A DNA stretch of 32,000 nt from Candidatus Heimdallarchaeota archaeon (lineage in GTDB: Archaea; Asgardarchaeota; Heimdallarchaeia; Heimdallarchaeales; Kariarchaeaceae): NCBI GenBank assembly GCA_030149205.1, contig JASBSB010000001.1, positions 120,001 through 152,000 of the forward strand. The letters are read 5' to 3'. The notes beneath the pieces are model-generated. The model did not search any database. It had not been told where the DNA came from and saw nothing but the letters and a program-made list of their open reading frames with translations. Of the stretch, positions 9,709 through 22,953 are shown in pieces. A program made the position numbers and the translations under genes. Each line of letters opens with the position of its first letter. The first letter of the stretch is position 1.

Positions 9709-11637
9709 GTGGAAAATTCTTATGACATTTTCATGCTGTTCAAAGAACTAAAATTAGATAAATTTAAAGCTGATGTGTTACAAGATGATCAAACTTTAAT
9801 TGAAGAGGGTTACTTAATCTCTGTCAACCTCTCAAATTACAGTATTAATGAAATCCCTAAAGCAGTTTTTACTTATTTCTATAGACTAGAGCGGCTTAAC
9901 CTCTCAGGAAACAAACTTAACACATTGCAAAAACATATTTTTGACCCTTTGGTAAACCTAAAAGAACTGAACCTTTCTGGAAACAAGTTACAATCACTTC
10001 CTTCAGACCTCATAAGAAATCTCAGGTTATTAGAGACATTAAATTTGGATGGAAACAAACTTCGAGAATTTGATAAGTTCTTTTTCGAAAAATCAACTGA
10101 GCTCAAACAACTTTCTGTTGCCTCAAACAAATTAAGACAAATCCCGAATTTAACAAGATGCAACAGATTGGTTACATTGGATTTCCACTCAAATAAAATT
10201 GAAGAAATTACAAAAGAAGGCCTTAAAGGGCTCCTTAACCTCAAAGAAATAAATTTGGGGTATAATAAGTTAACAAAACTTGATTTAGGTGATATCCCTG
10301 AATCTATCTTACAGCTTAATCTTGAAAGCAACCAGTTAGAGTCTATTATAAATGAACATGTTGAACTCCTCCCTCTTGAAACTTTGAACCTTCAATCAAA
10401 CCATCTTATTTCTTTTCCCAGGTTTCATCTCCCATCTCTAACAACCTTGTTTTTAGGTGAAAATTTTATAACAGAGATTTATGACAAGAGTTTCAAGGGC
10501 ATTCCTGAGCTTAAGATAGTTTTTCTGCAAAGAAACAAAATAAATTATATTGAGACAAATTTTATCTGTAATTCTAAATTAGAACTTCTATGGTTAGAAG
10601 GTAATGAACTATCAGAAGATCAAGATCGAAACCTAAATTCCTTTGAGATGATCAAGAATTGGTGTTCAAAAACTCAAAAACAGGAATTATCAAGAAAGTT
10701 AGTATTTGAACTATTGAAAATACTAAAGATAGAAAAAAAGTTCGCCCAGGTTTACTCAAGTGATAAAACAGTAATCCTGGGTGATAATATCATTTCTTTG
10801 GATTTATCTGGTCTTGGGCTCTCAGGAATATTAAATCTTAGTGATTCCAAATTTAACAGCATATCAAACCTATATGTCAATGACAACCATTTTGATAAAA
10901 TCTCAAAACTTCCTAATTCAATCGAGATATTAGATCTAAGAAATAATAGTTTTGTCGATTTACCCTTACTCACACATGAATTACCATTACTAAAACAATT
11001 GTTCTTAAAGGGAAATCCCCTCCCCTCGAATTGGGACAGGAATTTAACTGATGAATTTGATTTAGAAGAATTTACTCTATTTTTTGAACAAACTAGGCAA
11101 ACCAGAATGAGTATATTTCAGTTTTTAGCTATTATAAACTCACCAGAACAGTATTCAAGGATAATAACTTCACCTCAAACAAAAATAATACAAGGAAAAA
11201 TAAATTCAATAGACCTGTCAGGATTAAAACTAGATAAAATTCATGAGATTCCACTTGAAATTAGTAGAGATGCAAAATCTTTAGATTTATCAAATAATAG
11301 CTTATCAGAAGTCAATTTAATTCAATTCAATAGCCTAGAGGAGTTAAATTTGAGCAGAAACAACATTAAAAGCATTAACAGCATTTCAAGTTCTAAAAGT
11401 ATAAAGATATTAACACTCTCTGAAAACCTAATTACTGAAATTACAGCTCATGATATTAAAAATTTCCCAATGCTAGAGTCCTTAGATATAAGTGACAATG
11501 AGTTAAGAAGCATCGATATTGCAGAGCTTACAAATTCTAATCTTAAGGAATTAGCATTAAGTAAAAATCCTTCTCTTAAATTACAAAAGGAAGCTCTAAG
11601 GCAATTGAACATAAAAATTAAAGTTGAAATTGATTGA
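9709..11637 (+). CDS. Leucine-rich repeat protein (642 aa), three LRR blocks
   Basis: Many LxxLxLxxNxL repeats (LERLNLSGNKL, LKELNLSGNKL, LETLNLDGNKL, LEELNLSRNNI, LESLDISDNEL). Confidence 0.93.
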   Translation: MENSYDIFMLFKELKLDKFKADVLQDDQTLIEEGYLISVNLSNYSINEIPKAVFTYFYRLERLNLSGNKLNTLQKHIFDPLVNLKELNLSGNKLQSLPSDLIRNLRLLETLNLDGNKLREFDKFFFEKSTELKQLSVASNKLRQIPNLTRCNRLVTLDFHSNKIEEITKEGLKGLLNLKEINLGYNKLTKLDLGDIPESILQLNLESNQLESIINEHVELLPLETLNLQSNHLISFPRFHLPSLTTLFLGENFITEIYDKSFKGIPELKIVFLQRNKINYIETNFICNSKLELLWLEGNELSEDQDRNLNSFEMIKNWCSKTQKQELSRKLVFELLKILKIEKKFAQVYSSDKTVILGDNIISLDLSGLGLSGILNLSDSKFNSISNLYVNDNHFDKISKLPNSIEILDLRNNSFVDLPLLTHELPLLKQLFLKGNPLPSNWDRNLTDEFDLEEFTLFFEQTRQTRMSIFQFLAIINSPEQYSRIITSPQTKIIQGKINSIDLSGLKLDKIHEIPLEISRDAKSLDLSNNSLSEVNLIQFNSLEELNLSRNNIKSINSISSSKSIKILTLSENLITEITAHDIKNFPMLESLDISDNELRSIDIAELTNSNLKELALSKNPSLKLQKEALRQLNIKIKVEID

Positions 11638-13967: not shown

Positions 13968-14908
13968 ATCAGTTCCCTTTGGTTAAACACAAGATAGTAT
14001 TGTTTTACAGGTATTAAAAGTCTACTAATTACTAACATTAGTTGACATCCACTTTTTCAAAGTGGGTCTACAAAAGTCATCACAGATATTAGTCTCCCAA
14101 CTAATACCTTTTTAATTAAAGTAATGAAATCTATTTTCAATTTCAATACGAAACTGTATTTCGGAAAACATCACACTTTAACACAATTCAATAGAAATAG
14201 ACTATTCATTAAGAAAATAAAAATAAAGAAAGTCGCTTCCATATTTAACAAGAAAGAATTGAAACTACGATAACAGATAAACCTAAAAATTATTAAGATA
14301 AAATAAGAGCAAAACCTATCAAATGGTACAAGGTGAAAGCATAAGACCAAGTTAATTCAATAGTAGATTCTTATCAACAAAAAGCTGCGAAATTACCACT
14401 CCCTAAAATTCTGCTCAAGTTAATCAGTTTACTGATAGAGGGAGTACAAGCTAAGATAAAGATTCTATAAATTATAATTGTAAAATCATATTTGCTCTAA
14501 TGTCGATTTTTGATTTTAAATTTGTTCATGAAAGGTATTGTCCATTGTAACCAGAACATCCCAATGAATTTGGGATTAAAATGAAAGAAATAGTTATTGA
14601 TCGTAAAAAGAGAAGAGAAGAGTTGAAAACCAATATGGGTAGTTATCTAATTTAGTGGTTTAGGTAGTTTACTTTACTAAATTAATACAATATTACAGAA
14701 GATTACAAAGATTAGATGTTTTAATTGCAAATATCATAAAAAACATTTCATCTTAGTAAATTTTTTAGTTTGTACTAAAGCAGAGTATTATTTCACAAAA
14801 AACAATCTAAGTTTGTTAGAACAGAAGATAAACAACCATTTTAAGGAAAAATATATGCAAAAAGAAATTTAAGTTCGGGTTAATTCTTTTCAATGACCTA
14901 ATATAATT

Positions 14909-15742
14909 TCAAGTGTCAAACTCTAATAAATCTATAAAGTCACACAATTTACAAAATTGACATACCTTAGATGTGAAATCTTGTTCAGGTAACTTTTTTA
15001 TATTATTTAATTGTTGTGATTTTTCGTATAAATTAGAAATCTCTTGCAATAATCCCCCAATCGTTTTCTGGTCAATTTTTTGAATTTGATCAAATTTTGG
15101 TTTACTATACCAAAGTTCAAGATTTATTTGCTGGTCTGGAAAAGAACTGTATAATATTTCACCATAAATTTTTATTTGATTCTCATCTTCTAGTTTTGGA
15201 GTACCCGTTTTGTATTCAATTATTCGTAATCCACCTGTTTCAGAAAATGCTACCAAGTCAATCTTACCACGTATTTGAAAATTGTGGTTAATTCTATTGA
15301 TAACAGTAAATTCATCTTGAATTACAAGTGATGTTATCTCATTATTATTAATTGTAACCAAACTTTCTGCCATAAGAGCAAGATTATGAAGTTGACTTGT
15401 AATTATATCAAAACTATTTGAAAATTCTTGGCGATGGTATTTCCATGGACCTGTATTATTCATCCATATTTTTTTTATTGAATCTAATTCAATTTCCATT
15501 GATAATAATATTGCATCCTTTATATTCTTACTTTTACGGTGATAAAAAAATTCAACATTACTAAAATTTCTTAGGAATACTCTCTGTAAAATTAAATGTA
15601 AAAAATTTCCCGCGTATACAAATTTGTTAGGTGTAAATGGTATTTTTATCTCCTGTTGAGCATATAATACCTGTAACATTGTTCTTCTTTTACAATTAAA
15701 TTCATTTACACTTGTAACTCCTAATCTTATTGATTTATTCAT
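14909..15742 (-). CDS. PD-(D/E)XK nuclease, Cas4/AddB-like with putative Fe-S cysteines
   Basis: C17 (EFNCKRR), GNFLH, IRGKIDLV, IIEYKTG (D...ExK), QIKIY (RecB-type QxxxY) and C-terminal CQFCKLC. Confidence 0.85.
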   Translation of the reverse strand: MNKSIRLGVTSVNEFNCKRRTMLQVLYAQQEIKIPFTPNKFVYAGNFLHLILQRVFLRNFSNVEFFYHRKSKNIKDAILLSMEIELDSIKKIWMNNTGPWKYHRQEFSNSFDIITSQLHNLALMAESLVTINNNEITSLVIQDEFTVINRINHNFQIRGKIDLVAFSETGGLRIIEYKTGTPKLEDENQIKIYGEILYSSFPDQQINLELWYSKPKFDQIQKIDQKTIGGLLQEISNLYEKSQQLNNIKKLPEQDFTSKVCQFCKLCDFIDLLEFDT

Positions 15743-17513
15743 TTAATGTCCTCCTATTTTCCAATAAAAATTCTGAAGAATAGTGCATAGCTAATCCAAG
15801 GATAAATGGAAATTTCGGTTTTGATAAACTGTATGGGTTTATGAAGGTTTGATAAAATACATCTTGAAGTATTTCTTGGATATCATGCAATCCTTTGATT
15901 TTTTCAATAAATAATGGTTTGGGAATACCTTCAAATAAATCATTAGGATATCCATTTGTCATAATTAATGACTTGTTATCATTAATACTAACTGATAAGC
16001 CATCAATTGCTTTAGAAGTATTTTCGATCTGTCCATAAAGGATTGAGTGTGATGAATTAACTAAAACTAAACAAAAATTATAATGGGAAATTTTATCAAT
16101 TAAAGGTAATAACTGTCTGTCTGAAATTTGAATTAAGAAGTGGTCTGAATCACTAAAATTAATCAATTTTTGTAAGAAATCATTAATTTTAACTTTTTCA
16201 TCGATATTTTTGTCTCTATCATTATAAAAAATATCATGTGAAATGTTAATATTTCCCTTATTAGAACTAACACCTGATAATATCATCCATTCTCCTGCAT
16301 AATATGGTGTTATATGAAGAGCGATTATATTCTGATGATACTTCATTGATACATTTTGATATAATTTTCGAGTGTATCTAAATCTAATATTCAACCAAAT
16401 TAGTTTTACAATTTTTCCCCAATCATCTTCTAATATTGTTGAAAATTTAATGATTTTATTTGGAATTACAATTTTTTCTTTAGTTTTATTGTATACATAT
16501 CCTGAACCCTTTATTCTATCGTCGATACATATTATAGCTGCATCTGCCTCAAATTTATGAAGCTTGGAGACATAATAGCTTTGAATTGTAATATTTAATC
16601 CTGTAACTTCTGCAAAATATGAAATAAAATTCTGAATCTTAATGGGGGTATTATCTGTCACAGATTTATCAATTAAAAATAATATATTGCTAATAAATGG
16701 ATCAAATGAAATGTTATCCTCTAAAATATCTACTAATGGAGTAGTGTTTAAAGTTTCAATAGTGTTTGAATTGATTTTTATCGACGGACTATTTATTAAA
16801 TCCCCTTTCAGATTCTCAATAACAGATAATCTTACATTTCCGATTTGATTTGTATTTATTACTTTGATTATTTTAAGGAATCTTTGTTCCACTGATTCAA
16901 AATTTCGATGTAATTGTAATACTTCTTTTTCTATTACACCAGGTATTAATTTATTAGATGTTAAGTTAAATGAATTTTCAGATATTTCATGTCTGGGATC
17001 ATAAAAAACCATAACCTTATCATCTCGCATCTCATGGCATTCAAACCTTTCAGCTTGAAAAATCGAATACGTGAATGTTTCATTAAACTGTTCAACAGTT
17101 TTTTCTACGATAGGATTTATTCTTTGACTAGCTACTCCTTTAGATTTTCCAATAAATGACAGTACCTCACTGGGTCTATAATAACCTTTGTTTGAAAATG
17201 TAATATATAAGGCTGTCAATACGAATATGTCAAGATTTTGTATTTCTTTCTTTTCATTAATCTCTGTAGTACAGATTGAAACAGGGATTGTAGCAATCTC
17301 CAAATGTGAAGGTGGTTTTTGTGCGAAAAGGTAATATGAATCCTTTACATATATAATTGTAAATGGAACATCTGATAAAAAATCACCATTTTTTAATGCA
17401 AAGGTCAGAAAGCTAAATTCATAGTTGTACTGCATGGAAACTTTGTACATTTTTAATACAGCTGTATCAATTTGTGCTATCCAACCAAGTATTTTGCATA
17501 TCATATAAACCAC
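15735..17513 (-). CDS. Argonaute/PIWI-like protein 2 (PAZ-less, catalytically inactive); probable start ATG 17504
   Basis: PIWI C-terminus SLIMTNG...EGIPKPLFIEK...EILQDVFYQTFINPYSLSKPKFPFILGLA. MID-like YNKTKEKIVIPNKII...LIWLNIRFRY. L1-like VMVFYDPRHEI. First catalytic Asp position is His (IALH). ATG 17504 overlaps the upstream TGA (ATGA). Confidence 0.75.
   Translation of the reverse strand: MVYMICKILGWIAQIDTAVLKMYKVSMQYNYEFSFLTFALKNGDFLSDVPFTIIYVKDSYYLFAQKPPSHLEIATIPVSICTTEINEKKEIQNLDIFVLTALYITFSNKGYYRPSEVLSFIGKSKGVASQRINPIVEKTVEQFNETFTYSIFQAERFECHEMRDDKVMVFYDPRHEISENSFNLTSNKLIPGVIEKEVLQLHRNFESVEQRFLKIIKVINTNQIGNVRLSVIENLKGDLINSPSIKINSNTIETLNTTPLVDILEDNISFDPFISNILFLIDKSVTDNTPIKIQNFISYFAEVTGLNITIQSYYVSKLHKFEADAAIICIDDRIKGSGYVYNKTKEKIVIPNKIIKFSTILEDDWGKIVKLIWLNIRFRYTRKLYQNVSMKYHQNIIALHITPYYAGEWMILSGVSSNKGNINISHDIFYNDRDKNIDEKVKINDFLQKLINFSDSDHFLIQISDRQLLPLIDKISHYNFCLVLVNSSHSILYGQIENTSKAIDGLSVSINDNKSLIMTNGYPNDLFEGIPKPLFIEKIKGLHDIQEILQDVFYQTFINPYSLSKPKFPFILGLAMHYSSEFLLENRRTLNE
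15749..15755 (-). promoter_or_regulatory. Shine-Dalgarno site AGGAGGA for the Cas4-like nuclease, inside the 3' end of the upstream Argonaute-like gene
   Basis: Minus strand reads AGGAGGACATTAAATG, with the ATG at 15742. Confidence 0.7.
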
Positions 17514-19702
17514 GGCTTTTTAAAATGGAAATTCGCCATATCTTTAGGAATTTTGCCCATACCTCTACTTGATGAATGAATTGGAACTGGGAGCTTAGTT
17601 TCAATTCTATCCCATCCAGAATAACAATGGCATAAATCAAAAATCTCATAAAGAAGTTTTTCAAATCTCTCCTCATCACATTTAATATTTCTTAATACAA
17701 TTGGATTTTGAGTCCCAACATTTCCTTGTGTTGAAATTAAACCAACTTCAGTCTTAGATATCCAATAAAAAGTCCCAATATGTGGCCGAAATATTCTATT
17801 TTTTTCATTCTTTGAATAAATACGAAGTGGAGACGAAGAAATTACCTCAACAATTGAATGTTTTAAATTAAGAATATTAAGGCTATGTTCAATATCTTTT
17901 AATTCTCTATCATAAAATTTTCCATTCTTTATTAAAACTACTTCATCATTATTTTTAGTGAGTAACTTAAAAGCACTTTCAAAATTTTGTTGACGATTTT
18001 CGACGTTATCAGAAATGTAGTATCCTCCACTAAATCTACCCGAATTATAATATGAATTTAGTAACCCCCGATATTTAGTTGCATCTAGTGAGATGTTTTG
18101 AGATTGCAAACCAATATATTTTACAAAACCATTTTCATTAACATTCAGTAACCATGAATGTAGACCTAACTTTGCAATTATACCCAAAAATATATTCCGA
18201 AAATACCCATTTTGTCTTGATTCAATTTTATCCTTCAGAACATTAAAATTAATTCCCTGATGAGGATATTCATTTTTTATTAATTCACCAGATACTAATT
18301 CTTTGAATTCACTATCTACACTATCATTATCAGAATGAACCACTATGATACAATTGTTGTTATTTACAAATTTATCCATATATTCTGATAAGTCTCCCTT
18401 TTTTTCGAGAAGTTTTATTTCATCAAACTCAATTTCTGTACTAAGAAATTGTTGAAGAATGATTATTTCTTTTGTTTCTTTTAGAAATGGCTTTTTTATT
18501 AATCCTAATTGATATTCATTATACTCTCGATATAATAAAATCGATATTTTTAACTTTTCGGGACCCTTATCAAATATCCCATATTTTTGAATTTCTAATG
18601 CTGGGTAATCAGTCCTATGTGAATTACCAATAATGTAATTATTCAAATCTAATAGTCCAGAGTTACATGAGTTCCAAGATTGAAAGTTTCTAATTGGATT
18701 TAGAGTTATTGAACCCACGGTTAAATTACCTATAAAACGCATATAATTCTGTGATCGTTTAAATCTAATCGGAGGGTCAGGCCTAATTTGTTTCATCAGG
18801 GCACCTCTATCATGATAATCCAAATGTGAAAATGTTGGTAATTCTCGAATTCTTTCTAAAGGGTATGAATAATACTCATCATTATCATTTTTATAGAATG
18901 ATAACGCAATAGGTGGTTCATCTTGTATAAATTCACCAAGCACGGGTGCTCTAGGACAAATGAATTTTTGTTTGTGAAACTCAATTATATCTAAATTATC
19001 AATTATTACCTCTGAAGGTTTCTTATTTACAATTTTTTTCAATTTCACAGTCTTCCCAGTTCCAGCATATCTACAGTTTGAGAAAGGATCCTGTTTTTCT
19101 GGACATTGAATAATTGGACAAGTATCTACATAATAATTTTTCGGATTTATTTCTATACTAGAATATGAAAGTTTCTCTCTCAATGATACGGATGAATGAA
19201 ATTTATATTTGAGATCAACTATTACTCCAACTTCACCATTTTTAAGCAAAATTGGAGCATATTGAAATCCTGGGAAAACATCAATTTTTCCAAAACCCTC
19301 GATGGTCTCAGGGCTAGAAACCTCAAATATTGAATTGTAAGTTTCTTGTATCTTCCATAATTTATTACTATGTCGTAAATTGACAGCAATAGCATCTCCA
19401 ATAATTCTTTTCAATAGATCTAAATCATCATCATTTTGGGCTGAAACTAATCTACTAGTAGGAGGAAATAAATTTACTGCCAAATCTTTTTCGAAATCAT
19501 CTTCAAGTAATTCGGTTGAAATTATCTTATCTCCAAATTGAATTATAATTTTACGTCGATTATCTGGAACTTTCCTAAGATTAAGTAATACATCACCAAG
19601 TTTTCGAAAGTTTATTTCTTCTTTTTTCCTATATTCAAAGACTGTAACTTTATCTTTGAATGGTGTTTTTTCAAATTTTAAAATATTAGTTATTATTTCC
19701 AT
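17501..19702 (-). CDS. ago: Long prokaryotic Argonaute (N-L1-PAZ-L2-MID-PIWI), catalytically inactive
   Basis: L1 DVFPGFQY...VIVDLKYKF; PAZ end YSYPLE; L2 IRPDPPIRF; MID YPHQGI...NIFLGIIAKLGLHSW; PIWI YIGLQ, VVLIKNG, GTQNPIVL, KLPVPIHSSS; terminal PWFI. Tetrad Asp positions read Q533, N593 and S712. Confidence 0.9.
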   Translation of the reverse strand: MEIITNILKFEKTPFKDKVTVFEYRKKEEINFRKLGDVLLNLRKVPDNRRKIIIQFGDKIISTELLEDDFEKDLAVNLFPPTSRLVSAQNDDDLDLLKRIIGDAIAVNLRHSNKLWKIQETYNSIFEVSSPETIEGFGKIDVFPGFQYAPILLKNGEVGVIVDLKYKFHSSVSLREKLSYSSIEINPKNYYVDTCPIIQCPEKQDPFSNCRYAGTGKTVKLKKIVNKKPSEVIIDNLDIIEFHKQKFICPRAPVLGEFIQDEPPIALSFYKNDNDEYYSYPLERIRELPTFSHLDYHDRGALMKQIRPDPPIRFKRSQNYMRFIGNLTVGSITLNPIRNFQSWNSCNSGLLDLNNYIIGNSHRTDYPALEIQKYGIFDKGPEKLKISILLYREYNEYQLGLIKKPFLKETKEIIILQQFLSTEIEFDEIKLLEKKGDLSEYMDKFVNNNNCIIVVHSDNDSVDSEFKELVSGELIKNEYPHQGINFNVLKDKIESRQNGYFRNIFLGIIAKLGLHSWLLNVNENGFVKYIGLQSQNISLDATKYRGLLNSYYNSGRFSGGYYISDNVENRQQNFESAFKLLTKNNDEVVLIKNGKFYDRELKDIEHSLNILNLKHSIVEVISSSPLRIYSKNEKNRIFRPHIGTFYWISKTEVGLISTQGNVGTQNPIVLRNIKCDEERFEKLLYEIFDLCHCYSGWDRIETKLPVPIHSSSRGMGKIPKDMANFHFKKPWFI

Positions 19703-19704
19703 AT

Positions 19705-20391
19705 TTATCTCTCTTTGTTTTTAAGTAACTCAAATGAACTTATCACCGCAAGGTCTGTGTTAACCGTTTTTGTTAGTATTTTCTTACAAGCTGAATGCAT
19801 TATGAAAAATCCTGTACCTAACGCAGTTTTCATTAACTCGTTTTTTGCGGATTGCAATAAAATATCATTAACTATTATTTCAGGATGAACTGATGTTGAA
19901 AAATATACTTGGATTGTAAATGAACTCGTATCATCCAAAAACAAAAAAGAATTTATTCCATCTTTTTTCCAATTACACTTCAGTGAAAAAAGATCTTCAA
20001 TTCTTGAATTAAACCCGTCTAATCTATTAAATTCTTCGCTAATTTCTTTGATAGGTAGTATAATTGAAGATTTTAACAAATAATTCCCCATAACTCTCAG
20101 GTGCCAATTAGAATTAAATTTATCTACGTCTAATACTTGTATAGTTTGATTGGATTGATACAATCCTGTATCTTCTTCATAAGAAAGCAGATTATCTTTA
20201 GTTAATTGGCTAAGTATCATTTCAACTTCTACATTTGGTATATGATCAAAATATAGATTACTTCTCCCAGAACTCATCCAAATATGTTTCACTATATTTG
20301 ATTTTTTTGCACTACCATAATCTCGCAGGAAATCAAGAATTAATTTTTTAATTGCTTTCTCCATTGAATCTTTAGGTTTCATATCAATCAC
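19705..20391 (-). CDS. Winged-helix protein with a possible degenerate restriction-endonuclease (Mrr-like) C-terminal region
   Basis: N-terminal wHTH pattern (LILDFLRDYGSAKKSNIV...VEMILSQLTKDNLLSYEEDTGLY). C-terminal beta/alpha region with FTIQVY where Mrr has xQxK. GTG 20391 overlaps the upstream TGA; alternative ATG at 20382. Confidence 0.5.
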   Translation of the reverse strand: MIDMKPKDSMEKAIKKLILDFLRDYGSAKKSNIVKHIWMSSGRSNLYFDHIPNVEVEMILSQLTKDNLLSYEEDTGLYQSNQTIQVLDVDKFNSNWHLRVMGNYLLKSSIILPIKEISEEFNRLDGFNSRIEDLFSLKCNWKKDGINSFLFLDDTSSFTIQVYFSTSVHPEIIVNDILLQSAKNELMKTALGTGFFIMHSACKKILTKTVNTDLAVISSFELLKNKER

Positions 20392-21428
20392 CTGACTATC
20401 TCCTTAATCTTTGACTTTAGTTCTTCAGAATTATCTACAATTACAACATTCTTAAAATTGTAGCGTATTTCATCATAATATTGATTAGAATTGTTTAAAA
20501 TAATAAAATGGGTAATATCAATAAACGAAGTAAAAGCAAAATTAATTTCATCTACCTCTTCAGAAGGTAAATGCATATCTACAATCCATAATCCAATTTT
20601 TAGGTTATTCAATTCAATGTAAATGGGAATTGTTATACTCTCATTCTGACTATTTGTAATCTTTATTTCCTTACGGATAAAAATTGGATTGAATTCTTGA
20701 ATTACATTGAGGAAGCTTTGACCAATTTTCTCCTGTAAATACTTGAAATCATCACTGAAAGCCGGAATTCCAGATATTTCCTCAAAATCTTTTGCTGTGT
20801 ATTTTGTTCTCATTTGAGAGCTTGATTTTGTAATTATTTGTTCTATTATATCTTGAAATATTTGTTTAGGATTACGAATTAGAATATTATATTTTGATAG
20901 CTCTTCAAGACATTTACTCTTAATATTATCGAATGGACTTGATGGATGATTGGGGGCAAAATAATTCCAAACAAATTCTATTTTTTTGAATACTTCAATT
21001 TTTTTCTGATCTGTGAATTTTCCTTTGAAAAGAGAATTTATTCTACCTTTATCAGCATTTGAAATTTCTAAATTGTTCTGAAGGTTTTGTTGAATTTGCA
21101 GTAGTTCAGTAATTTCTGCATTCCAACCCGATTGAGTTGTAAATCGAAATTTAATTTCTTTTCCAGATAAATTTTTTTCATCTTCCTGTATGAACTTTGT
21201 TAAAATTGGTATCAAACTTGATTTATTCCAGACACTATGTTCTTTTTTCTTTACCTGTTCAAATATAAAGTACCCAGTATATTCTATGTTAATATCTTCT
21301 AATTCATCATCCTTTGATTCAAATTCAATTGATAAAATCTGATCTCCTTTAATGAATTCAATGACTCTTAGTACTCCAACCATATTTTGGTAATTAATAC
21401 CATAGTTTGTATCAATTCCACTTGGCAA
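20388..21428 (-). CDS. Cap4/DUF4297-like dsDNA PD-(D/E)XK nuclease-domain protein
   Basis: N-terminal GINYQ...IEFE...LEDINI...FEQVK...W pattern (D45, Q58-x-K60) as in Cap4/LmuA-type nuclease effectors. TTG start. Confidence 0.72.
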   Translation of the reverse strand: MPSGIDTNYGINYQNMVGVLRVIEFIKGDQILSIEFESKDDELEDINIEYTGYFIFEQVKKKEHSVWNKSSLIPILTKFIQEDEKNLSGKEIKFRFTTQSGWNAEITELLQIQQNLQNNLEISNADKGRINSLFKGKFTDQKKIEVFKKIEFVWNYFAPNHPSSPFDNIKSKCLEELSKYNILIRNPKQIFQDIIEQIITKSSSQMRTKYTAKDFEEISGIPAFSDDFKYLQEKIGQSFLNVIQEFNPIFIRKEIKITNSQNESITIPIYIELNNLKIGLWIVDMHLPSEEVDEINFAFTSFIDITHFIILNNSNQYYDEIRYNFKNVVIVDNSEELKSKIKEIVR

Positions 21429-21810
21429 TATTTTAAATCTAGTTTTCTTTATAATAATTCAGAGATATTGTAATAATCAAAATGAAAGTTTTAAAAATTT
21501 AAATATACAATATGTGATATCAAAAAAATTTTATTGCAAAGACTTAAAATAAATGAGAACTCGAAGCTGGATAAAGACCTATAACCGTGATTTCCTTGAA
21601 ATATCTCGGATATAATCAAGAAAATAAATTAGTAAATCTAAATCTTGATTGAAATATTCTTCGTCTACTAATTATTCTTATTATATTGTTATCTTATAAG
21701 AGTTGGAAGTACACAGATATTCGACTTGCTAAGTCAGTATACAATATATATTCAACCAGTATCTTTCAACTATGACTACCAATTCCAAAAAAAAAATGAA
21801 ATTGAATGAA

Positions 21811-22953
21811 TTAATCCAGGTGTTTATTGTTTTTCTTAATATGCTGCAATGTATCTTCATTGTGAGCTGCCAAATACTCAAAAGAATTGTCATACATAGT
21901 TTGATTTAATCTATGAATAATGTCACTTTTTACGAAAATACTATATTCAACAGGAGTTTTGTTATCAATTGTAGATAAATTATTTGTTATGTATTTCATA
22001 AAATTTTCCAGATTTAACAATCCTATCGCAATTGTGGGATTAATTGGTATGTAATATTCTAACATAACTGATACTCCATTTACTATTAACTCTGCTATAA
22101 TCAATGGATTGTCTGAAGTAATTAATTCTACAGGGTGGTCTTGAGGATTTAGTCCAGATAGATTAATTATGATGATCGGCCTGAGTTCAGTATGTTTTAG
22201 TGGTTTATCAACTGTTTCATCAGGCAATTTTTGTAAAACTTCTCTGATTTTATTTTCAATTTCGATTTGACTATCTTTATGATCTAAAGATTTCTTTATT
22301 CCGATACTAATATTTTTACTTATTAAGGATATCATACCTTGTAAGTCGTTTTTTAAAAAATACCCCTGTGCTTTTTGTAAAAACACCTCGTCATATTTAA
22401 TATTACTTTGATATAGAATCTCCTGTGTTTCAGTGCTAATAAAACTAAAATCCAATATCTTACTAAATTTCATGTAATTTCTAAATGAAGGTGTTCTAAA
22501 CGTTAGATGATTAATAAAATCACATAAAATTTCGAAATTTGATTGCAAATGCATAGCATCTATGAAAGTCTCCGCAAATTTTTTTATATCTAATGATTTT
22601 TTGAATATGTTATCTCTATTACTAGGGTTGTAAATTTTTATTTTCTCAGTTTGAAAATTTAATTTTTCTAATCCAGTAAAGAACTTAGCGACTTTATCCT
22701 CAGCTTCACTCATCAAATCGTCAATCAGTTCCTCTAAAAACCTTGGAGAATAAAAACTTTGATTAATCTTTTTTTTGTCAATATCCCCAGTCTTTTTGTT
22801 CAACCTAAATACTCTTTTCTTTTTGTTATCTTTTTCAAAATCCTCCTCAATAACAAAATTTCGTAGAAACCACTGAGGAATATAATGTTGTTTTCTGCCT
22901 GACATGAACATAACTGTGGAATAATTGTATATTATAGTATTTGAACGAGACAT
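21811..22953 (-). CDS. DUF4238 domain protein
   Basis: QHYIPQWFLRNF near the N-terminus, LTFRTPSFR, LITSDNPL and YIPINPTIAI. Confidence 0.85.
   Translation of the reverse strand: MSRSNTIIYNYSTVMFMSGRKQHYIPQWFLRNFVIEEDFEKDNKKKRVFRLNKKTGDIDKKKINQSFYSPRFLEELIDDLMSEAEDKVAKFFTGLEKLNFQTEKIKIYNPSNRDNIFKKSLDIKKFAETFIDAMHLQSNFEILCDFINHLTFRTPSFRNYMKFSKILDFSFISTETQEILYQSNIKYDEVFLQKAQGYFLKNDLQGMISLISKNISIGIKKSLDHKDSQIEIENKIREVLQKLPDETVDKPLKHTELRPIIIINLSGLNPQDHPVELITSDNPLIIAELIVNGVSVMLEYYIPINPTIAIGLLNLENFMKYITNNLSTIDNKTPVEYSIFVKSDIIHRLNQTMYDNSFEYLAAHNEDTLQHIKKNNKHLD

What the first reader, a model, noticed from the sequence alone, without database searches (positions are those of the whole stretch)
17501..19702. 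Full-length Argonaute with a dead PIWI site but intact C-terminal anchor
Seen: Asp positions read YIGLQ (Q533), LIKNG (N593) and IHSSS (S712). The MID Gln and Lys (PHQ, AKLG) and the terminal PWFI are kept. Known: the C-terminal carboxylate and MID residues bind the guide 5' end, and loss of the tetrad marks long-B-type sensors. Inference: it binds a guide but does not slice. Its position relative to Asgard Argonautes such as HrAgo1 bears on the origin of eukaryotic AGO/PIWI.
Basis: partly seen in the sequence, partly recalled or inferred. Interest (0 to 1): 0.75.

Follow-up and report, generated by a model that had tools for sequence, protein, structure and literature searches.

The report
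Inactive Asgard Argonaute in nuclease operon
This gene of an Asgard archaeon encodes a complete Argonaute that has lost its cutting residues but kept most guide-binding ones; it belongs to a rare clade that is listed in a published tree but never studied, and it always sits in an operon with a second, degenerate Argonaute and nuclease genes, so it probably senses invading DNA and leaves the cutting to its partners.

Summary
The ORF lies on the minus strand (17501-19702, 733 aa). It folds as a full N-L1-PAZ-L2-MID-PIWI Argonaute (pLDDT 91). Q533, N593 and S712 sit where CpAgo, CbAgo, AaAgo and PDB 9iad have three catalytic Asp residues, and the glutamate-finger loop is shortened. Q482, K511 and the C-terminal end are conserved, but the Tyr/Lys half of the MID 5'-phosphate pocket is missing.

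"Binds a guide, does not slice" is the best reading, but it is inferred, not shown.
- The protein is not a long-B member. Its nearest characterised relatives by profile score are long-A pAgos. In the published trees its clade lies outside the RsAgo/long-B group, and its deeper position is unresolved.
- It is far from HrAgo1 and the eukaryotic Argonautes.

Bastiaanssen et al. 2024 already list a clear relative (ASG413_01333) and its neighbour. Leão et al. 2024 report that about 80% of Asgard Argonautes lack the DED triad, so a dead Asgard Argonaute is ordinary.

More interesting is the conserved, translationally coupled five-gene cassette: Cap4-like nuclease, a 228-aa protein, the pAgo, a PAZ-less Argonaute-like protein, and a Cas4-family nuclease. 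The scan has also noted this cassette separately on this same DNA. The closest known systems are APACE and BPAN.

The parts
17501..19702 (-). Argonaute gene, 733 aa (P0001): a full-length, catalytically inactive long pAgo. Approximate domains, from the model and alignments: N-L1 aa 1-185, PAZ region aa 186-292, L2 aa 293-375, MID aa 376-515, PIWI aa 516-733.
   Evidence: ORF. AlphaFold2 pLDDT 91.1 / pTM 0.89. Foldseek and VIA matches span residues 1-733 of full-length Argonautes. PADLOC pAgo models hit at 1e-39 to 1e-7.
18104..18106 (-). Codon of Q533, at the position of the first catalytic Asp.
   Evidence: Aligned to GLD of CpAgo and 9iad and to the D541A site of CbAgo. Never Asp in the 18-member cassette clade.
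17924..17926 (-). Codon of N593, at the position of the Asp of the RDG motif. The following G594 is invariant.
17567..17569 (-). Codon of S712, at the position of the fourth tetrad residue (Asp or His in active Argonautes).
   Evidence: Aligned to D of AaAgo HYSDK and 9iad GSDR.
18170..18259 (-). MID 5'-end pocket remnant: Q482 (18257-18259), N503 and K511 (18170-18172), each conserved in at least 90% of 31 family members. The Tyr-x3-Lys half further upstream in the protein (aa 466-471) is not conserved.
   Evidence: Alignment to CpAgo PSQ and GKIGG.
17504..17515 (-). C-terminal PWFI (aa 730-733). The chain end coincides with the C-termini of reference Argonautes. W731 and F727 are invariant among the eight closest relatives.
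18956..19120 (-). Four-Cys cluster (C195, C200, C210, C249) in the PAZ region. It is a family signature and a probable zinc site.
   Evidence: Nearly invariant in 31 sequences. Present in the Nitrososphaera-type relatives and absent from the DDD-type outgroup. Metal binding was not tested.
15735..17504 (-). Second, degenerate Argonaute-like gene (589 aa from the conserved ATG; PAZ apparently missing). Its ATG overlaps the pAgo stop codon (ATGA).
   Evidence: Junction read. Family profile hits the PIWI C-terminus of 9iad at E 3.4e-7. Model pLDDT 77; Foldseek E 1.5e-19 to Argonautes. It lies directly downstream of every core-clade pAgo examined.
14909..15742 (-). Cas4-family PD-(D/E)XK nuclease, 277 aa, with an intact D162/E176-x-K178 motif and 1+3 Cys (C17, C261, C264, C267).
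   Evidence: Pfam PDDEXK_1 5e-11. PADLOC Cas4c and Aga_Cas4-like_Nuc. Invariant residues. Complex prediction with the pAgo gave weak support only.
19705..20391 (-). 228-aa protein of no known family. It sits directly upstream of the pAgo and is conserved in the cassette.
20388..21428 (-). Cap4/LmuA/HamA-type nuclease, 346 aa, the first gene of the cassette. A metallophosphatase replaces it in one relative.
   Evidence: Pfam Cap4_nuclease 9.7e-10. PADLOC LmuA and HamA. Variant first gene.

Best explanation
The gene encodes a guide-binding but non-cutting long Argonaute that acts as the sensor of a five-gene mobile defence cassette in an Asgard archaeon.

Shown by sequence and structure prediction:
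- A complete Argonaute fold.
- Loss of all three Asp ligands, plus a shortened glutamate-finger loop.
- Conserved Q482, N503, K511 and C-terminus.
- Tight translational coupling with four conserved neighbours.

Inferred:
- The protein loads a short nucleic-acid guide. The Cas4-family nuclease probably generates or trims it, as ACE1 does in APACE1.
- It base-pairs with invader nucleic acid.
- Instead of slicing, it switches on the co-encoded nucleases (the Cap4-like enzyme and/or the Cas4-like enzyme), probably together with the PAZ-less Argonaute-like partner. This would resemble long-B pAgo-nuclease (BPAN) and short pAgo systems.

The guide type (DNA or RNA; 5'-P or 5'-OH) is open, because half of the canonical 5'-phosphate pocket is missing.
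For: - Fold and domain completeness.
- Tetrad positions Q/N/S by alignment to four solved active or active-type pAgos. The loss is shared by the whole 18-member subclade (SH-aLRT 99), while outgroups keep D..D..D.
- Purifying conservation of Q482, N503, K511, R627, T664 and the C-terminal WF[IV].
- The same cassette (nuclease / ~230 aa / pAgo / ~600-aa Ago-like / Cas4-like) occurs in six DNA loci and two gene lists, with unrelated flanks. The Ago-like partner is adjacent in all 12 core-clade loci.
- Gene junctions overlap or nearly touch: an ATGA overlap between the pAgo and its partner; overlaps of 4 and 8 nt and a 2-nt gap elsewhere.
- The Cas4-family catalytic and Fe-S residues are intact.
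- Island-like low GC (26-30% against 31-38% in the flanks).
- Patchy occurrence: 10 of 400 Asgard species genomes and 0 of 3 congeners.
- Precedents: ACE1 binds its pAgo and trims guides (PMC12094033). Inactive long pAgos use nuclease effectors (PMC10620215 and PMC13535254, abstracts listed).
- Complex prediction of pAgo with the Cas4-like protein gave weak support. Score 0.51, best control 0.01. This mark was reached by 58 of 80 solved complexes and 2 of 110 mismatched pairs; at 0.60 or under, only 7 of those 80 solved complexes reached it, as did both mismatches that passed. The runs agree in at least 85% of contacts, and the partner's pLDDT is at least 76.
Against: - No experiment shows guide binding, defence or nuclease activation.
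- The Tyr-x3-Lys half of the MID pocket is absent in P0001 and P0002 and is variable across the clade, so 5'-end anchoring may be weak or unconventional.
- None of the cassette genes matches a characterised pAgo effector family closely.
- Which of the two nucleases, if either, is the effector is unknown.
- Two cassette loci lie beside HerA-NurA-Mre11-Rad50 genes. This could point to DNA repair rather than defence.
- The complex score lies in the range where passes are more often wrong than right unless the guess was already likely.
Confidence: 0.55

Rival explanations
1. The pAgo and its partners form a DNA-repair, recombination or replication-associated module rather than an immune system. 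In this reading the inactive Argonaute binds DNA ends or small DNAs and recruits the Cas4-like and Cap4-like nucleases for end processing.
For: Two of the cassette loci sit directly next to HerA-NurA-Mre11-Rad50 genes. Cas4-family nucleases are related to the AddB/RecB end-processing domains (PMC12094033). The canonical 5'-phosphate pocket is incomplete.
Against: Occurrence is sporadic: 10 of 400 Asgard genomes and none of three congeners. The cassette lies in a low-GC island and has unrelated flanks in other loci. All this is typical of mobile defence cassettes, not of core repair genes. In this window the neighbours are TBP and TFE, not repair genes.
Confidence: 0.12
2. The pAgo silences by binding only, as proposed for RsAgo: a guide-loaded protein occupies invader DNA or RNA and blocks its expression or replication. 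The neighbouring nucleases would serve only in guide biogenesis or act independently.
For: The catalytic site is dead while guide-contact residues are conserved. The Cas4-family partner resembles ACE1, a guide-processing enzyme.
Against: The cassette carries two intact nucleases plus a second Ago-like protein, all strictly linked. That is more than guide biogenesis needs. Characterised inactive long pAgos with co-encoded nucleases act through those nucleases (PMC10620215).
Confidence: 0.15
3. The pAgo and the adjacent PAZ-less Argonaute-like protein form an obligate two-Argonaute heterocomplex. The roles are divided, for example one loads the guide and the other binds the target or an effector. 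This complex, not the pAgo alone, is the sensor.
For: The partner has an Argonaute fold. It is translationally coupled through an ATGA overlap. It sits directly downstream of every core-clade pAgo examined, 12 loci in all. It keeps an invariant Y341-x3-K345, which the pAgo lacks.
Against: No interaction test was possible: the two proteins exceed the size limit of the complex predictor, and cutting the pAgo would invite a false pass. A 5'-end pocket cannot easily be shared between two chains. This reading overlaps with the best explanation rather than excluding it.
Confidence: 0.13
4. The gene is a decaying, functionless remnant of an active Argonaute.
For: All catalytic residues and half of the MID pocket are lost.
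Against: The reading frame is intact across relatives down to 25-30% identity. Many residues are invariant, the model is confident, and the operon is conserved.
Confidence: 0.02

Closest known systems
Asgard Argonaute clade containing Asgard_ASG413_01333 (Heimdall, 743 aa), listed in Bastiaanssen et al. 2024, Nat Commun 15:5499 (PMC11217426), Supplementary Datasets 1, 5, 9 and 10
   Same: The printed alignment rows of ASG413_01333 carry the family's diagnostic motifs: IPKQGI, GIFAKMG, IYVGFSSKY, VIMKHGRIW, FPVPVHASDKV, a C-terminal EKAWFV, and the DTCP...C...C cluster. Its neighbour ASG413_01332 (600 aa) matches the Ago-like partner here (KIFGW, YYDPRYE, LMTNGYPNKPEGIPKP, KPKFPFPL). The gene pair is therefore already catalogued.
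   Different: The paper only places these sequences in a tree. In the passages I searched, I found no function, operon or biochemistry described for this clade. I matched the motifs by eye from printed rows, because the sequences could not be imported for a computed alignment.
APACE1/APACE2: long-A pAgo plus Argonaute-associated Cas4-family enzyme (Bobadilla Ugarte et al. 2025, Mol Cell; PMC12094033)
   Same: A long pAgo is co-encoded with a roughly 280-aa Cas4-family nuclease that has a D-(D/E)xK motif and 1+3 Cys. The nearest solved pAgos by profile are long-A. A predicted pAgo-Cas4-like contact has weak support.
   Different: APACE pAgos are active slicers and form two-gene systems in bacteria. 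Here the pAgo is inactive, the host is archaeal, and three further genes are linked. Membership of the Cas4-like protein in the ACE1 or ACE2 clade was not tested.
Long-B pAgo-nuclease systems (BPAN) and other inactive long pAgo effector systems (Song et al. 2023, PMC10620215; EcBPAN, PMC13535254)
   Same: A full-length but catalytically dead pAgo is encoded with nuclease genes. The likely logic is that target recognition activates an effector.
   Different: The protein is not in the long-B (RsAgo) clade by profile score or by the published tree. The effectors belong to other families (Cap4-like, Cas4-like). The second Argonaute-like gene has no counterpart in BPAN.
CbAgo / CpAgo / AaAgo (active long-A pAgos with solved structures)
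   Same: They are the best sequence-profile and structure matches. Profile E-values are 7e-59 to 7e-50. Foldseek gives E 5e-35, TM about 0.7. VIA gives Z 32.3 over 677 residues for CbAgo.
   Different: They keep the DEDD tetrad and the Tyr-Lys-Gln-Lys MID pocket and act alone. They lack the four-Cys cluster in the PAZ region.
HrAgo1 (Asgard, RNA-guided RNA slicer; PDB 8r3z)
   Same: Same overall fold (VIA Z 30.8, 657 residues aligned, 14% identity) and an Asgard host.
   Different: HrAgo1 has an intact DEDH tetrad and groups with the eukaryotic Argonautes. The clade of this protein is elsewhere in the same trees.

Membership tests
Argonaute/PIWI superfamily, long (full-length) pAgo | N-L1-PAZ-L2-MID-PIWI architecture in one chain | tested here: met
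   The AlphaFold2 model (pLDDT 91.1) aligns over residues 1-733 with full-length Argonautes. CbAgo: 677 residues, Z 32.3, rmsd 4.9. Foldseek E 5e-35.
Argonaute/PIWI superfamily, long (full-length) pAgo | DEDX catalytic tetrad in the PIWI domain (defines active members only) | tested here: not met
   Q533, N593 and S712 occupy the three Asp/His positions, and the glutamate-finger loop is shortened.
Argonaute/PIWI superfamily, long (full-length) pAgo | MID 5'-end pocket (Tyr/Lys/Gln/Lys) plus the C-terminal carboxylate | tested here: inconclusive
   Gln482, Lys511 and the C-terminus are conserved, but the Tyr-x3-Lys half is absent (F466/K467...S471).
Long-B pAgo clade (RsAgo type) | Phylogenetic placement within the RsAgo-containing clade | tested here: not met
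   The family profile scores RsAgo at 6e-20, against 7e-59 for CpAgo. In the published tree the clade of the relative ASG413_01333 lies outside the RsAgo/AfAgo group and joins the wider long-B/short/HrAgo2 assemblage with only 62% support. I did not compute a tree with long-B references.
Long-B pAgo clade (RsAgo type) | Catalytically inactive PIWI domain | tested here: met
Long-B pAgo clade (RsAgo type) | Reduced PAZ domain lacking the 3'-end pocket | tested here: inconclusive
   The PAZ region (aa ~186-292) is present and aligns with the CpAgo PAZ region, but it carries a four-Cys insert. The 3'-end pocket residues were not assessed.
Long-A pAgo | Closest similarity to, or clade membership with, TtAgo/CbAgo/AaAgo-type pAgos | tested here: inconclusive
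   The best profile and fold matches are long-A. In the published trees, however, the clade branches apart from the CbAgo/TtAgo group, with low support at the deep nodes.
APACE (pAgo plus Cas4-family ACE) | Operon partner is a Cas4-family nuclease with D-(D/E)xK and 1+3 Cys | tested here: met
   PDDEXK_1 5e-11. Invariant D162, E176, K178, C17, C261, C264 and C267.
APACE (pAgo plus Cas4-family ACE) | The pAgo is an active siDNA-guided DNA slicer | tested here: not met
   The tetrad is lost.
APACE (pAgo plus Cas4-family ACE) | The pAgo and the ACE form a heterodimer | tested here: inconclusive
   Complex prediction gave weak support only: 0.51 against a best control of 0.01. Scores of 0.60 or under were reached by 7 of 80 solved complexes and by both mismatches that passed.
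HrAgo1/eukaryotic Argonaute lineage | Sister position to eAgos, with an intact DEDH tetrad | tested here: not met
   No tetrad. Clade relatives are placed far from FWG169_03248 (HrAgo1) plus the eAgos in all printed tree versions.

The most novel reading that the evidence does not exclude
The pAgo and the adjacent PAZ-less Argonaute-like protein work as a two-Argonaute sensor, a heterocomplex of paralogous or convergently recruited Argonautes. On target recognition this sensor licenses two different nucleases. That would be a type of prokaryotic Argonaute immune system not yet described, largely confined to Asgard archaea.
Probability: 0.25. Interest if true: 0.75.

Novelty: new member of a known kind. 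Interest (0 to 1): 0.42.

Why it matters
A dead full-length Asgard Argonaute is not surprising in itself: Leão et al. 2024 report that only about 20% of Asgard Argonautes keep the DED triad. The value lies in the context. This clade always comes with a second, degenerate Argonaute, a Cas4-family nuclease, a further nuclease and a small protein of unknown family. That architecture combines features of APACE (Cas4-family partner) and BPAN (inactive sensor plus nuclease effector) and adds a tandem Argonaute. Characterising it would widen the known range of Argonaute-based immunity in the archaea closest to eukaryotes. It does not, on present evidence, bear on the origin of eukaryotic AGO/PIWI.

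Tried and rejected
- Pfam and NCBIfam give no significant hit for the pAgo. The Pfam Piwi model finds nothing in the whole genome even at E 1. Only PADLOC pAgo models and family profiles detect it.
- The word-indexed homologue search returned only the protein itself and one relative for the pAgo, and the same for the partner, both as a single sequence and as an alignment. The exhaustive search was needed.
With the single protein it found only the known relative, whose title names just 'archaeon'.
- 'PprPIWI', the name of the best PADLOC model, occurs in no searchable paper.
- The accession of the relative's genome occurs in no paper or supplement searched.
- A profilin search to place the genome was uninformative, because nothing rang in the controls either.
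- The 228-aa upstream protein shows no detectable similarity to the 269-aa gene upstream of the Nitrososphaera relative (hhalign probability 0.07%), and it has no Pfam family.
- No tRNA gene was found in the window by ARAGORN. The sigma-70 promoter scan was below shuffled expectation and does not apply to archaea anyway.
- No RNA holder was listed among public runs. The only holder is the probable source metagenome, so expression could not be examined.
- The careful phylogeny did not finish in the time allowed, so the quick IQ-TREE result is reported.
- I did not send pAgo plus the Ago-like partner to the complex predictor. Together they exceed 1000 residues, and cutting the pAgo to MID-PIWI would expose the surface that its own N-lobe covers, which could produce a false pass.

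Full report
**Observation**

Window 17501-19702 holds one uninterrupted ORF on the minus strand (733 aa, ATG start, TGA stop). The plus-strand translation is full of stops.
- YIGLQ (Q533), LIKNG (N593) and IHSSS (S712)
- PHQ (Q482) and AKLG (K511)
- PWFI as the last four residues

**Is it an Argonaute, and is the active site dead?**

Pfam and NCBIfam do not recognise the protein. PADLOC pAgo models do, at 1e-39 to 1e-7. An AlphaFold2 model built on 31 relatives is confident (pLDDT 91.1, pTM 0.89).

The model matches full-length Argonautes over its whole length:
- Foldseek: E 5e-35, TM about 0.7 to KmAgo, CbAgo, CpAgo and TtAgo.
- VIA-align: Z 32.3 over 677 residues to CbAgo, and Z 30.8 over 657 residues to HrAgo1.

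HMMER alignments place three residues on catalytic positions:
- Q533 sits on the first catalytic Asp (GLD in CpAgo and 9iad; the D541A site of the CbAgo crystal mutant).
- N593 sits on the Asp of the RDG motif.
- S712 sits on the last Asp (AaAgo HYSDK, 9iad GSDR).

The glutamate-finger loop is about five residues shorter than in DDD-type relatives, and nothing in it is conserved. P0001 has V567/E568 there, and many relatives also have an acidic residue, but the alignment is ambiguous. With three metal ligands gone, slicing by the canonical mechanism is excluded as far as sequence can show.

**Guide-binding features**

Q482, N503 and K511 are conserved in at least 90% of 31 family members, as are R627 and T664 in the PIWI domain. 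Q482 and K511 align with the Gln and second Lys of the CpAgo/CbAgo MID pocket. Residue 733 aligns with the last residue of AfAgo, CbAgo, hAgo2 and HrAgo1. The C-terminal WF[IV] is conserved. The C-terminal carboxylate should therefore reach the MID-PIWI interface as in other Argonautes; that role is established knowledge from TtAgo and AfPiwi structures and was not measured here.

The Tyr-x3-Lys half of the pocket is not conserved. P0001 has F466/K467 and S471 there, and the segment varies across the clade, whereas more distant relatives (P0021, P0052) keep Tyr-x3-Lys. Guide binding is therefore likely, but the chemistry of the guide's 5' end is open.

**The family**

An exhaustive search of 1.84 billion representatives finds only 53 relatives at E ≤ 0.001. 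A quick maximum-likelihood tree (the careful search did not finish) gave these results:
- An 18-member subclade (SH-aLRT 99) contains every protein that I found inside the cassette.
- None of these 18 has Asp at the first tetrad position.
- The outgroups include a Nitrososphaera-type group (D/E/N) and canonical D/D/D proteins.

The loss of the tetrad is therefore old and fixed in this subclade. A four-Cys cluster in the PAZ region (C195, C200, C210, C249) is a signature of the family, and the D/D/D outgroup lacks it.

**Host**

The window carries archaeal TBP and TFE genes. The genome encodes an ESCRT-II (Vps25) gene next to two Snf7-type ESCRT-III genes, all above the Pfam cut-offs. This marks an Asgard archaeon. 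Earlier notes of this scan call it Heimdall-group; I did not test that finer placement.

The pAgo family is found in 10 of 400 Asgard species genomes at E ≤ 1e-20. It was not found in the three congeners searched, which are 82-89% complete. The gene lies in a stretch of 26-30% GC between flanks of 31-38%.

**Context**

The pAgo is the third gene of a tight minus-strand operon:
1. Cap4/LmuA/HamA-like nuclease (20388-21428)
2. A 228-aa protein of no known family (19705-20391)
3. The pAgo
4. A roughly 590-aa protein (15735-17504)
5. A Cas4-family PD-(D/E)XK nuclease (14909-15742)

The junctions overlap or nearly touch. The pAgo stop and the next gene's conserved ATG share the sequence ATGA.

The same five-gene order recurs around relatives down to 27% identity, with unrelated flanks. 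In one case a metallophosphatase replaces the first nuclease.

The fourth gene is itself Argonaute-derived:
- Its family profile hits the PIWI C-terminus of 9iad at E 3.4e-7.
- Its model (pLDDT 77) matches Argonautes at Foldseek E 1.5e-19.
- It lies directly downstream of the pAgo in all 12 core-clade loci examined. It is not found beside the more distant pAgos.

The Cas4-like protein keeps D162, E176-x-K178 and the 1+3 Cys of the iron-sulfur 'staple'.

**What is known**

- Bastiaanssen et al. 2024 (PMC11217426) list 138 Asgard Argonautes in 15 clades.
- Their alignment rows for Asgard_ASG413_01333 (Heimdall, 743 aa) carry this family's motifs. Those of the adjacent ASG413_01332 (600 aa) carry the partner's motifs. 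The gene pair is thus catalogued, but in the passages I searched I found no operon, function or biochemistry described for this clade.
- In their trees the clade is Asgard-only and sister to ASG472_01049 plus a Nitrososphaera protein (support 92-100).
- The clade lies outside the RsAgo/AfAgo long-B group. It joins the wider long-B/short/HrAgo2 assemblage with only 62% support in one tree, and less in others.
- It is remote from HrAgo1 plus the eukaryotic Argonautes.
- By profile score the nearest solved proteins are long-A: CpAgo 7e-59, CbAgo 7e-52 and AaAgo 7e-50, against RsAgo 6e-20.
- I therefore treat it as a deep, separate clade. It is neither long-B nor securely long-A.
- Leão et al. 2024 (PMC11291487) report that only 20% of Asgard Argonautes keep the DED triad, so inactivity alone is ordinary.

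**Mechanism**

Two characterised systems frame the most likely mechanism. In APACE1, a Cas4-family enzyme binds the MID-PIWI lobe of a long-A pAgo and trims its DNA guides (PMC12094033). In long-B systems, an inactive pAgo activates a co-encoded nuclease on target recognition (abstracts).

I propose that here the Cas4-like enzyme supplies or trims guides and the dead pAgo recognises the target, probably together with its Argonaute-like partner. The Cap4-like nuclease (and perhaps the Cas4-like one too) would then do the cutting.

A complex prediction of pAgo with the Cas4-like protein gave weak support:
- Score 0.51, best control 0.01.
- The mark was reached by 58 of 80 solved complexes and 2 of 110 mismatched pairs.
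- At 0.60 or under it was reached by only 7 of those 80 solved complexes, and by both mismatches that passed.
- The runs agree in at least 85% of contacts, and the partner's pLDDT is at least 76.

All steps beyond fold, residues and gene linkage are inferred.

**Verdict**

The pAgo is a new member of a catalogued but uncharacterised Asgard clade of inactive long Argonautes. The operon around it is the part that merits experiments. The scan has already noted that operon separately on this same DNA.

Noticed in passing
window 15735-17504 (-) compared with 17501-19702 (-): The Argonaute-like partner keeps an invariant Y341-x3-K345 in its MID-like region, while the pAgo lacks exactly that half of the 5'-phosphate pocket and keeps the Gln/Lys half. 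I cannot explain how this complementarity would work between two chains.
   Followed up: partly
window 18956-19120 (-), pAgo aa 195-249: A four-Cys cluster (C195, C200, C210, C249) in the PAZ region is nearly invariant across the family, including the Nitrososphaera-type relatives, and is absent from canonical D/D/D relatives. It is a probable zinc site and is not known from characterised PAZ domains.
   Followed up: partly
window 14020-14040 and 21663-21683: An imperfect 21-nt direct repeat (12 exact bases, GTCTACTAATTA) brackets the five-gene cassette almost exactly. It could mark insertion borders, or it could be chance in AT-rich DNA.
   Followed up: no
window 21811-22953 (-): A DUF4238 gene (380 aa, Pfam 6e-15) lies in the same low-GC stretch just upstream of the cassette. 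It is not part of the conserved five-gene set in the other loci.
   Followed up: no
L006:263-5885, and the contig of P0004 for which no DNA was available: In two relatives the cassette sits directly beside HerA (DUF87), NurA, Mre11 (Metallophos) and Rad50 (SMC_N/AAA_23) genes.
   Followed up: no
L010:7189-10319 (Nitrososphaera viennensis CP007536): The most distant subgroup of the family keeps the first Asp, has Glu in place of the RDG Asp (HKEGN), and retains Tyr-x3-Lys. It lacks the cassette and is preceded by an unrelated 269-aa gene. A large SMC-like gene follows.
   Followed up: partly
window 9709-11637 (+): A 642-aa leucine-rich-repeat protein whose best NCBIfam matches are bacterial LRR adhesins and effectors. 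It lies outside the low-GC island.
   Followed up: no
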